Assembly (NCBI GenBank): GCA_951406725.2 | Contig: OX597837.1 | Coordinates: forward strand, 1,178,001 to 1,242,000 | DNA: 64,000 bases | Reading direction: 5' to 3' | DNA from: Octopus vulgaris | Taxonomy: Eukaryota | Shown: positions 28,792-30,831 of the stretch, piece by piece | How positions within the stretch are numbered: the stretch's first letter is position 1 | Layout of the letters: each line of letters opens with the position of its first letter | Made by a program: the position numbers

Positions 28792-29960
28792 TGTATGCAA
28801 GTGTGTGGCTGTGTGTATTCAAATATTTTTCAGTCATTGGACTGCGGCCATGCTGGGGCACCGTGTTGAAGAATTTAGCCACACAAATGGCCCCCAGTAC
28901 AATTTTTTTAAAGATCTGCAGGTTTTCTATTCTGTTTTGAAAACTGCTATTACGTAGACGTAAACAAACGAACATAGGCACTTAAGTGGTAGTGGAGAAC
29001 CAACACACATACAGACACACAGCTGCACATACACTCAGACATATGCATACGTCAGGCTTTCACACAGTTTCCATCTACCATTTTCATTAATAAAGCATAG
29101 GTTGACTATATAAGAGGCACTTGAAGAAGGTGCCGTAGAGAGGGGTTGAACCTGAAACGACGTGGTTTCTAACTGAGCTTAATAAGCTACTTCGATATAC
29201 ATGTTTGTGTGTGTGTAGGTTTCTGTCTGTCTGTATTAGGTCTTCCTTCGTGAGACGACCCTCTCAGGCATGGACCTCTGTGTCTAGCTTTACCCTCCAC
29301 CTGGGCTCCTGAGCAAAATGATAAATAGTTGCATCTGCAGCACAAGTGTAACGATTGCAGGCAAACTAATGCACAGCATCGGTTGCACCTTCTTTTTCTA
29401 TGTGTATTGTTCATTATTGCTTTATAGGCGCAGGAGTTACTGTGTGGTAAGTAGCATGCTTACCAATCACATGGTTCCGGGCTCAGTTCCACTGCGTGGC
29501 ACCGTGGGCAACTGTCTTCTACTATAGCCCCGGGCCGACCAAAGCCTTGTAAGTAGATTTGGTAAACAGAAACTGAAAGAACCCCGTCGTGTATATATAT
29601 ATATAAAGAAGGGAAACGCAAGAAGGATCAACCTATAACACTTAGCGCCGGAGAAGCTGATGATACCTGAAATACTAAAGGACCAAGAGAACTCAAGCGG
29701 GTTGAAAAAGGGAAACCCGATGAACATGTTAGACACTTGCAGCCTTAAATCTGTCAGGCCGTAATTCCTGCTGTAGCGGAAAGGGGTTAAACGTCATTTC
29801 TGTCGGATTCCCTTTTTCTTTCCTTTTTCTTTTATTCGTTTCAATCATTTGACTGTGGCCATGCTGGAGCACCGCCTTTAGTCAAACAAATCGAGCTCAG
29901 GGCTTATTCTTTGCAAGCCTAATACTTATTCTATCGGTCTCCTTTGCCGAACCGATAAGT

Positions 29961-30006
<46 letters not shown>

Positions 30007-30831
30007 TGTGTGTCTGTATTTGTTCCCCCAACATCGCTTGTCAACCAATGCTGGTGTGTTTGTGTCCCGTAACATAGCGGTTCGGCAAAAGAAACCGATA
30101 GAATGAATACTAGGCTTGCAAAGAATAAGCCCTGAGCTCGATTTGTTTGACTAAAGGCGGTGCTCCAGCATGGCCACAGTCAAATGATTGAAACGAATAA
30201 AAGAAAAAGGAAAGAAAAAGGGAATCCGACAGAAATGACGTTTAACCCCTTTCCGCTACAGCAGGAATTACGGCCTGACAGATTTAAGGCTGCAAGTATC
30301 TAACATGTTCATCGGTTTTCCCCCTTTTCAACCCGCTTGAGTTCTCTTGGTCCTTTAGTATTTCAGGTATCATCAGCTTTTCCGGCGCTAAGTGTTATAG
30401 GTTGATCCTTCTTGCGTTTCCCTTCTTTCGGTATGCCATGTTACAACCCCTTTTATATGCCGAGTGGCTGACAGGTGCGCAATGCGCGTCACTATTACAC
30501 CTTTACCATGTTATTGCAATTCCTGGAATCTGCTTCGCAAATCAATTTCTATCTACATTCGATAGGAAGTATTGGAAGGTGTGGCCAATTTCTCCTGCTT
30601 AGACAAGTTGTTCACAAGTAATGGAATGATATAAATTGATGTGAAGAAGAGAAGTGTTTAAAAATCCGTCTGAGATCTGTTCAACAGTTTTGCTGTGAAG
30701 GTCTTGTTGCGTTCTGCAGTAGTTTTGCCAGCGGTTTACTGTGGCATTGACATAGGGAAGATGCAACCAGAGAGGACGACAAGTCCTGGAAAACATCTCA
30801 AATGATGTAACGAGGTACAGTTTTAGCCGTG

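What the first reader, a model, noticed from the sequence alone, without database searches (positions are those of the whole stretch)
29605..30428. Recent ~360-bp inverted copy of neighbouring DNA pasted into a (TA)n tract
Seen: the insert 29605-29963 lies between two (TA)n runs inside a SINE. It is the reverse complement of 30069-30428, which spans the SINE 3' end plus about 210 bp of its non-SINE flank, so it is a local templated copy and not a transposon TIR. The arms differ at about a dozen sites, clustered near the loop, with a long identical middle. Inference: break or nick at (TA)n, template switch to the nearby opposite strand, then return. If transcribed it forms a ~360-bp dsRNA, an ideal ADAR substrate.
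Basis: partly seen in the sequence, partly recalled or inferred. Interest (0 to 1): 0.7.

Follow-up and report, generated by a model that had tools for sequence, protein, structure and literature searches.

The report
Local inverted copy seeded by SINEs
A short interspersed repeat carries, inside its TA-repeat core, a backwards copy of about 320 bases of its own downstream DNA, probably made when a broken end folded back on a nearby older inverted repeat fragment; this is a clear example of a known kind of repair scar.

Summary
29605-29963 is the reverse complement of 30069-30428: 360 aligned columns, 11 substitutions and 1 indel. It is the only long repeat pair of 92% identity or more in the window apart from one 102-bp direct pair. 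It splits a SINE-like repeat at its internal (TA)n, and the right arm runs 223 bp into DNA that has no other copy in the window.

The left arm is not one copy, though. At sites where the right arm departs from the family consensus, the left arm shares 10 of 10 states in 30111-30199 and 0 of 4 in the 42 bp next to the loop (Fisher p=0.001). In those 42 bp the arms differ 7/42, as unrelated copies do. So the true copy is 29605-29921 from 30111-30428 (313/318 identical). 29922-29963 looks like an older, separate inverted SINE fragment.

Best reading: a break in the (TA)n, fold-back annealing of the two inverted SINE pieces, synthesis into the flank, then end joining. This is a known mechanism in yeast (PMC11724301).

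Transcription, ADAR editing, the empty site and read support could not be tested.

The parts
29430..29590 (+). 5' half of the split SINE-like repeat (SINE-A)
   Evidence: blastn gives 11 other hits in the window at 70-86% identity. ARAGORN and Rfam see no tRNA in it.
29592..29605 (.). Left (TA)7 remnant of the repeat's internal microsatellite. This is the outer junction of the insert, with at most 1 nt (A at 29605) shared with the source.
   Evidence: Read directly. Other copies have (TA)n at this position.
29605..29921 (-). The true templated inverted copy of 30111-30428: 95 bp of repeat 3' end plus the 223-bp flank
   Evidence: 313 of 318 columns are identical. It shares 10/10 of the right arm's departures from the family consensus. 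The flank has no other copy in the window.
29922..29963 (-). Loop-proximal 42 bp of the left arm: a SINE fragment of separate origin (inferred 'SINE-B', inverted, truncated at GTAAC), the proposed fold-back seed
   Evidence: 7/42 differences from the right arm. It shares 0/4 of the right arm's private states and has 3 private states of its own. It differs from the 8 other copies at 5-8 sites of the 38-42 compared with each.
29964..30003 (.). (AT)20, the right part of the split microsatellite and part of the loop
   Evidence: TRF: period 2, 20 copies, 100% matches.
30004..30068 (+). TG-rich core and middle of SINE-A, the rest of the 105-nt spacer
   Evidence: Colinear with other copies.
30069..30205 (+). 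3' part of SINE-A, the repeat portion of the right (template) arm
   Evidence: Aligned with 8 other copies.
30206..30428 (+). Flank of SINE-A, single-copy in the window, which was copied into the left arm
   Evidence: blastn gives only itself and 29826-29605 at 97.8% identity.

Best explanation
This is a repair scar that lengthened an inverted repeat.

1. **Before the event (inferred).** A SINE-like repeat (SINE-A, + strand) already carried a 5'-truncated fragment of another copy of the same family (SINE-B) in or next to its internal (TA)n, in the opposite orientation. This gave a short, imperfect inverted repeat about 105 nt from the matching part of SINE-A.
2. **Break (inferred).** A break occurred in the (TA)n on the far side of SINE-B.
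3. **Fold-back (inferred).** After 5' resection, the 3' single strand ending in SINE-B sequence folded back and annealed to the homeologous SINE-A 3' part on the same strand.
4. **Synthesis (inferred).** A polymerase extended it through the end of SINE-A and 223 bp into the flank. Heteroduplex correction or end trimming made the part of SINE-B nearest the 3' end identical to SINE-A.
5. **Joining (inferred).** The new strand was released and its end was joined to the other (TA)n end with 0-1 nt of microhomology.

The result is a 359-bp near-perfect inverted repeat with a 105-nt spacer.

**Shown:** the anatomy, the local origin of 29605-29921, and the separate origin of 29922-29963.
**Inferred:** the break, the fold-back, the direction of synthesis and the end joining.

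My confidence that 29605-29921 is a DNA-level local copy is about 0.85. The figure given for this field is for the whole seeded fold-back scenario.
For: - **Local copy.** 313/318 columns are identical and the perfect run spans the repeat/flank junction. The flank has only these two copies in the window. The right arm is colinear with the rest of SINE-A.
- **Chimeric left arm.** Where the right arm departs from the consensus of 8 other window copies, the left arm shares 10/10 states in 30111-30199 and 0/4 in 30069-30110 (Fisher p=0.001).
- **The unshared states look older than the event.** Three of those four right-arm states recur in other copies (two in the copy at 49110-49200, one in the copy at 24920-24998). 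They therefore look like subfamily variants.
- **The inner 42 bp looks unrelated to the right arm.** L-R distance is 7/42, against a mean of 0.20 (range 0.14-0.30) for 28 pairs of unrelated copies (all).
- **No excess of change on the right arm near the loop.** It departs from the consensus at 4/42 sites in the inner segment and 10 sites in 30111-30199, so there is no sign of extra post-event change there.
- **The seed can pair.** The 42-nt imperfect inverted repeat with its loop folds as DNA into a 27-bp stem (2 G.T pairs), dG -42.1 kcal/mol, z -10.4.
- **The outer junction fits end joining.** It has at most 1 nt of shared sequence.
- **Precedent for the geometry (section 15 read).** In yeast, PMC11724301 reports inverted inserts of 10 to >150 bp copied from one side of a DSB. 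They were primed by a 10-bp imperfect inverted repeat with a 41-nt loop, and the other end was captured with 0-5 bp of microhomology.
- **AT repeats are fragile (search-listing abstract).** PMC12972899 reports that AT/TA repeats form hairpins or cruciforms and are fragile.
Against: - **No independent trace of SINE-B.** There is no tail, no target-site duplication and no allele or species with the pre-event state.
- **The three differences nearest the copy are awkward.** The mismatches at 29922, 29925 and 29927 lie in the 6 nt that stay unpaired in the predicted seed fold. A simple 'trim the flap, then extend' version would have erased them. The junction needs either a longer original heteroduplex with partial correction or extension from a mismatched end.
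- **The remaining differences are also unevenly placed.** All 5 differences in the copied part lie in its outer 131 columns ((131/318)^5 = 0.012). The model explains this only loosely, by slippage in homopolymer runs late in synthesis or by later conversion.
- **The polarity test is small.** It rests on 8 diverged copies from one 64-kb window, and some consensus calls are weak (frequency 0.5 at 30077, 30111 and 30176).
- **The break site is uncertain.** A break in (TA)n is inferred only from the junction position.
- **The enzymology comes from yeast.** The yeast inserts described were mostly much shorter (abstract: most about 5-34 bp).
Confidence: 0.5

Rival explanations
1. Several template switches, or later ectopic conversion. 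The insert was copied from 30428 inwards to about 30111, after which the polymerase switched to another SINE copy elsewhere for the last 42 nt. Alternatively, the inner 42 bp of one arm was overwritten later by gene conversion from another copy of this abundant family.
For: It explains the same 10/10 versus 0/4 step and the 7/42 distance. It needs no nested SINE-B. Template switching among diverged repeats is a recalled property of break-induced replication.
Against: - Initiation would rest on at most 1 nt of microhomology at 29605.
- A conversion tract would have to end exactly at the edge of homology, 29963/29964, where (AT)n begins.
- No copy in the window matches the inner 42 bp better than 5/42, so no donor is seen. 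This is weak evidence, since only 64 kb was searched.
Confidence: 0.2
2. A break or stalled fork in (TA)n, a homology-free switch to the opposite strand at 30428, copying of all 359 nt to 30069, then return. The 12 differences arose afterwards.
For: The insert is flanked by TA runs on both sides and is an inverted copy of DNA 105-460 bp away. Short template-switch events that create hairpins are documented (abstracts of PMC8794818, PMC10710096 and PMC7954356, as listed).
Against: - Four of the 7 loop-proximal differences have the left arm at the family consensus and the right arm not, and three of those right-arm states recur in other copies. The right arm had them before the event, yet the left arm lacks them.
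- If they were post-event changes, SINE-A would have had 0 of 14 departures from the consensus in that segment beforehand ((89/131)^10 = 0.02 for the other ten).
- The difference clustering is significant: P=0.0046 and P=0.0017.
Confidence: 0.12
3. An old inverted duplication, about 17% diverged, whose middle and outer parts were later homogenised by arm-to-arm gene conversion.
For: There is a long perfect middle (187 bp) between more diverged ends. Arm-to-arm conversion is known in large palindromes (recalled).
Against: - It needs at least two conversion tracts of different ages, given 0% divergence in the middle, 3.8% in the outer part and 17% in the inner part.
- The left arm's inner 42 bp shows no special affinity to the right arm at all (7/42 against 5-8/42 to unrelated copies). 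An old copy of the right arm should still share the right arm's subfamily variants.
Confidence: 0.07
4. A retrocopy. A read-through transcript of SINE-A plus flank (3' transduction) was reverse-transcribed, 5'-truncated and inserted into the element's own (TA)n.
For: The (TA)n on both sides could hide a target-site duplication. 5'-truncated copies of the family exist, for example 59687-59888.
Against: - There is no A-rich or other tail at the 3' end of the insert (29605).
- The source segment ends at ...CTTCTTT, not at a T4 run, and T4 runs at 30316-30328 lie upstream of that end.
- Landing within about 100-460 bp of its own source has no mechanistic basis.
- It does not explain the chimeric inner 42 bp.
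Confidence: 0.03
5. An assembly artefact (a chimeric or fold-back read, or a mis-join in TA repeats), or a multicopy composite element or TIR.
For: TA runs are hard to assemble. No reads and no genome-wide copy count were available.
Against: - The structure is an insertion that returns in register to SINE-A, not an open-ended fold-back.
- The arms differ at 12 sites in an evolution-like pattern, with 8 transitions among the 11 substitutions.
- Neither end of the source segment abuts a TA run.
- The flank has only two copies in 64 kb.
Confidence: 0.05

Closest known systems
[quoted passage not shown]
   Same: The insert is an inverted copy of DNA on one side of the junction. A pre-existing imperfect inverted repeat with a loop of tens of nt acts as primer. 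The other end is captured with 0-5 bp of microhomology.
   Different: Here the seed is about 42 bp of homeologous SINE sequence rather than 10 bp, the loop is 105 nt rather than 41, and the synthesised tract is 318 nt. The yeast abstract gives most inserts as about 5-34 bp, with some over 150 bp. This is a germline-fixed event in an animal genome, and no enzymology could be tested.
Inverted-repeat expansion and short template-switch mutations during replication (PMC13100816 abstract; PMC8794818, PMC10710096 and PMC7954356 abstracts as listed)
   Same: An imperfect inverted repeat is homogenised and lengthened by copying the opposite arm and its flank, creating a hairpin-forming sequence in one step.
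   Different: Those events are, as I recall, tens of bases long and return to the original template. Here about 320 nt was added and the return junction has at most 1 nt of homology, which looks more like end joining.
Inverted SINE/Alu pairs as dsRNA sources for ADAR (PMC5625713, passages read)
   Same: Two inverted copies of a SINE sequence within a few hundred bases could pair in a transcript.
   Different: Ordinary pairs are independent insertions, 14-30% diverged in this window, and pair only over the SINE. This one is 98.4% identical over 318 bp and extends into unique flank.
MITE or fold-back transposons with long terminal inverted repeats
   Same: Long inverted arms next to TA runs.
   Different: The right arm is part of the host SINE and its flank, and there is no other copy in the window. 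By contrast, two other TA-flanked palindromes in the window (31129-31437 and 62876-63114) do look element-like.

Membership tests
Fold-back-primed templated inverted insertion at a DNA break | The insert is the reverse complement of sequence lying next to the junction on one side | tested here: met
   29605-29921 is the reverse complement of 30111-30428, 313/318 identical and 105+42 nt away.
Fold-back-primed templated inverted insertion at a DNA break | A pre-existing inverted (micro)homology at the inner edge serves as primer | tested here: inconclusive
   The inner 42 bp is SINE sequence that was not copied from the right arm (0/4 against 10/10, p=0.001), and it can pair with the right arm (27-bp stem). 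That it pre-dated the event is inferred.
Fold-back-primed templated inverted insertion at a DNA break | The second junction is formed by end joining with little or no homology | tested here: met
   At most 1 nt (A at 29605) is shared between the (TA)7 end and the source.
Fold-back-primed templated inverted insertion at a DNA break | A pre-event (empty) allele exists, and the event depends on a break and on the polymerase and ligase machinery | not testable with these tools
Short replication template-switch mutation (four-point model) | A short inverted copy of nearby sequence that replaces or inserts at the switch site and returns to the original template | tested here: inconclusive
   An inverted local copy is present. 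Its length (318-359 nt) is well beyond the short range that I recall for this class; I saw only abstracts. The return junction has no homology.
Transposon with terminal inverted repeats / MITE | The arms belong to a mobile unit that recurs elsewhere with its own ends and target-site duplication | tested here: not met
   The flank part has no further copy in 64 kb. The right arm is colinear with the split SINE. Genome-wide copy number was not testable.
Retrocopy with 3' transduction | A 3' tail at the insert's 3' end, and dispersal away from the source | tested here: not met
   There is no tail at 29605, and the source lies 105-460 bp away.
tRNA-derived SINE (the host repeat; octopus-like by recall only) | A short, non-coding, multicopy dispersed repeat | tested here: met
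   About 13 further full or partial copies in the window at 70-86% identity. The two ORFs scanned that lie inside the split copy (29470-29793 and 29934-30179, - strand) gave no Pfam family.
tRNA-derived SINE (the host repeat; octopus-like by recall only) | A tRNA-like head with Pol III boxes | tested here: not met
   ARAGORN finds 0 tRNAs in the window. Rfam gives no tRNA match at E<=1 in 28000-32500. The label 'SINE' and the cephalopod attribution rest on my recall of the family's look, not on a call.

The most novel reading that the evidence does not exclude
Fold-back extension at pairs of inverted SINE fragments, triggered by breaks in the SINE's own (TA)n/(TG)n core, may be a recurrent process in this genome. 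It would turn ordinary, 15-30% diverged inverted SINE pairs into long, near-perfect inverted repeats that reach into unique DNA.

If the genome is a cephalopod's (recalled, not tested), this could help explain why octopus has an exceptionally high fraction of loci able to form long, nearly perfect dsRNA, and very heavy hyper-editing (PMC5625713, passages read).

Only one such case is seen in these 64 kb, so recurrence is pure conjecture here.
Probability: 0.1. Interest if true: 0.6.

Novelty: new member of a known kind. Interest (0 to 1): 0.3.

Why it matters
The locus is a well-preserved natural example of a break-repair product that is usually seen only in yeast reporters or cancer genomes. 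Both junctions, the template and probably the seed are still readable.

It shows how one event can create a duplex-forming sequence of about 360 bp that includes unique DNA. That is a ready substrate for dsRNA pathways if transcribed, and a potential fragile site at the DNA level.

It also carries a practical caution. Differences clustered at one end of a repeat arm can mark a chimeric origin rather than age or local mutation.

As a single locus it is not surprising to a specialist in genome instability.

Tried and rejected
- **Rfam.** Scanning 28000-32500 at E<=1 gave 56 matches, all generic hairpin or TA-repeat look-alikes of miRNA families and all below their gathering scores. Rejected as meaningless.
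- **ARAGORN.** 0 tRNAs in the window.
- **Target-site duplication of SINE-A.** No exact match of 7 nt or more was found between 29395-29440 and 30185-30270, so the element's exact 3' end is set by alignment only.
- **Coding context.** 19 ORFs, then 150 of 337 non-low-complexity stop-to-stop ORFs of 55 aa or more (533 before the low-complexity filter), were scanned against Pfam. Nothing passed a curated cut-off. There were three weak hits: DUF3894, PFF1_TM at 22.7 bits against a cut-off of 32.3, and AflR at 20.1 against 24. I therefore cannot say whether the locus lies in a gene.
- **A second example of the same process.** The 458-bp insert in another copy's (TG)n core (48605-49062) matches nothing else in the window. 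The TA-flanked palindromes at 31129-31437 and 62876-63114 have no external template in the window (the pal3 hits that I saw were TA-run matches, in a listing cut for length). They look like elements rather than local copies.
- **The repeat finder on the whole window.** The output was swamped by the low-complexity arrays at 41500-43480, so I replaced it with a dust-filtered self-blast.
- **Rows left out of the polarity test.** Seven short hits (31-52 bp) to the 3'-half query were not used as outgroups: six cover only its last ~50 bp (28828-28863, 25870-25920, 64-108, 34926-34976, 33883-33915, 12794-12826), and one (61441-61471) is a minus-strand hit to query positions 25-55 that overlaps a copy already used.
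- **Not attempted.**
  - Any search of eukaryotic genomes, reads or transcripts.
  - The bacterial/archaeal genome collection and the phage, plasmid and E. coli collections, which are irrelevant here.
  - I do not take the window for human DNA.

Full report
**1. What is there**

The window is AT-rich repeat-laden DNA. No protein domain passes its curated cut-off in the 19 ORFs scanned first or in the 150 longest of 337 non-low-complexity ORFs of 55 aa or more. It holds about 14 full or partial copies of one SINE-like repeat at 70-86% identity.

Each intact copy has a 5' half, an internal (TA)n(TG)n microsatellite and a 3' half, with the halves 12-60 bp apart. I recall this architecture from octopus SINEs. 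No call tested that, and ARAGORN and Rfam see no tRNA-like head. I do not take the window for human DNA.

**2.

- 29605-29963 is the reverse complement of 30069-30428: 360 columns, 11 substitutions and 1 indel, with a 187-bp perfect run.
- It sits between (TA)7 and (AT)20 inside one repeat copy (SINE-A). The two halves (29430-29590 and 30004-30205) are otherwise in order and in register. A paralogous copy at 61385-61460 shows what the uninterrupted junction looks like.
- The right arm is the last 137 bp of SINE-A plus 223 bp of flank. That flank occurs nowhere else in the window.
- In a dust-filtered self-comparison of the whole window, this is the only pair of 92% identity or more over 80 bp or more, apart from one 102-bp direct pair.
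- Because the perfect run crosses the repeat/flank junction, the two arms are copies of the same locus and not two insertions of a mobile element.

**3. The left arm is chimeric**

The 12 differences are not spread evenly. Seven lie in the 42 columns next to the loop (scan-statistic P=0.0046), and the 187-bp identical run is itself unlikely (P=0.0017).

I aligned the repeat part of both arms with 8 other copies from the window and asked, column by column, who departs from the family majority.

| Segment of the right arm | Right-arm departures from consensus | Shared by the left arm |
|---|---|---|
| 30111-30199 | 10 | 10 |
| 30069-30110 | 4 | 0 |

- The contrast gives Fisher p=0.001. The left arm also has 3 departures of its own in the inner segment.
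- Three of the four unshared right-arm states recur in other copies, so they look like subfamily variants that SINE-A carried from its insertion onward.
- In the inner 42 bp the arms differ at 7/42 sites. 28 pairs of unrelated copies average 0.20 (range 0.14-0.30). The left arm is 5-8 differences from every copy, the right arm included.
- The right arm departs from the consensus at 4/42 sites in the inner segment and at 10 sites in 30111-30199, so there is no sign of extra mutation near the loop.

The real copy is therefore 29605-29921 from 30111-30428 (313/318 identical). 29922-29963 is a SINE fragment of separate origin.

**4. Mechanism**

The simplest account is as follows:

1. An inverted, 5'-truncated fragment of another copy (SINE-B) already lay in SINE-A's (TA)n.
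2. A break occurred in the TA run on its far side.
3. The resected 3' strand ending in SINE-B folded back onto the homeologous SINE-A 3' part.
4. It was extended through the repeat's end and 223 bp of flank.
5. It was then joined to the other TA end.

Three observations fit this account:

- The 42-nt seed with its 105-nt loop folds as DNA into a 27-bp stem (dG -42.1 kcal/mol, z -10.4).
- The outer junction shares at most 1 nt.
- This is the geometry described for yeast 'local foldback inversions'. There a 10-bp imperfect inverted repeat with a 41-nt loop primed inserts of 10 to >150 bp, and the other end was captured with 0-5 bp of microhomology (PMC11724301, section 15 read).

Related precedent, from abstracts only:

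- AT/TA repeats are fragile, cruciform-forming sites (PMC12972899).

The break, the direction of synthesis and the joining pathway are inferences.

Weak points:
- There is no independent trace of SINE-B.
- Three mismatches lie right at the copy boundary in the unpaired tip of the predicted seed.
- All 5 remaining differences lie in the outer 131 columns (P about 0.012). Three of them form a slippage-like cluster in homopolymer runs at 29709-29716.

**5. Rivals**

- **A second switch to another SINE copy, or later ectopic conversion.** This explains the same step but lacks a reason for initiation, and it needs a tract ending exactly at the edge of homology.
It is contradicted by the polarity test.
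- **Old duplication plus arm-to-arm conversion.** It needs several tracts and does not explain why the inner 42 bp lacks SINE-A's variants.
- **A retrocopy.** It lacks a tail, would have had to land on its own source, and its source end is not at a terminator.
- **An artefact.** This is unlikely, because the structure is an in-register insertion with evolution-like differences. Only reads can exclude it.

**6. Function**

None is shown.

- A transcript across 29590-30440 would fold into a duplex of about 355 bp (dG -682 kcal/mol against -205 for 20 shuffles, z -58).
- Whether it is transcribed is unknown. A Pol III transcript from SINE-A's head would meet T5 at 29813-29817 first (the rule is recalled). 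A duplex therefore needs read-through from a host gene or a neighbouring promoter.
- Octopus is reported to have an exceptionally high fraction of loci able to form long near-perfect dsRNA, and very heavy hyper-editing (PMC5625713, passages read).
- From recall, a spacer of about 100 bp and a few per cent of mismatch greatly reduce the fragility of inverted repeats. That would fit the structure's survival.

**7. Age**

The copied part is 1.6% diverged, against roughly 10% for SINE-A from its family consensus. The event is therefore much younger than the insertion. No absolute date is justified without knowing the species and its rate.

**8. Verdict**

This is a real, clean and somewhat unusual-sized example of a known class: fold-back or template-switch inverted duplication that lengthens an inverted repeat. 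The 'decay near the loop' is better read as the footprint of an older inverted SINE fragment that seeded the event.

Left unchecked for want of data: read support, the empty site, genome-wide copy number, transcription and editing.

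Noticed in passing
window 31129-31437: A second young palindrome: arms of about 125 bp with a 49-bp loop, 123/142 columns identical overall and only 1 mismatch in the inner ~100 bp. It is bracketed by TA runs and ends in TAGAGG...CCTCTA. It has no other copy in the window. It looks like a fold-back or MITE-like element at a TA site rather than a copy of local DNA.
   Followed up: partly
window 62876-63114: A third palindrome, about 79% self-complementary over 242 bp. 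It also ends in ...TTTAGAGG / CCTCTAAA... and abuts a long TA/TG microsatellite. It may belong to the same element class as 31129-31437.
   Followed up: partly
window 48605-49062: Another copy of the SINE-like repeat (5' half 48388-48538, 3' half from 49076) is split in its (TG)n core by a 458-bp insert that matches nothing else in the window. The microsatellite core of this family seems prone to insertions.
   Followed up: partly
window 55880-56060 (- strand): In yet another copy, the word ...GAAACCCGTTGTAT... occurs twice, on either side of a (TA)n run, and a 53-bp self-match at 79% identity lies in the core. This is a small direct duplication across the microsatellite.
   Followed up: no
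window 31826-32060, also 30835-31016 and 31419-31471: Very long TA microsatellites ((TA)119, 96% matches) lie within 2 kb downstream of the finding, so the whole neighbourhood is unusually rich in cruciform-prone TA tracts.
   Followed up: no
window 41489-41938 and 43088-43494: Two low-complexity arrays about 1.2 kb apart are 76-82% complementary to each other over about 350-400 nt. They dominate any naive inverted-repeat scan of the window.
   Followed up: no
window 5639-5740 and 21088-21189: A 102-bp direct repeat pair at 93% identity, 15 kb apart. It is the only other high-identity pair in the window.
   Followed up: no
window 28828-28863 and five similar short hits (25870-25920, 64-108, 34926-34976, 33883-33915, 12794-12826): Short matches (33-52 bp, 78-89% identity) to only the last ~50 bp of the SINE-like repeat. 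They may mark another family, or a partner LINE, that shares its 3' tail.
   Followed up: no
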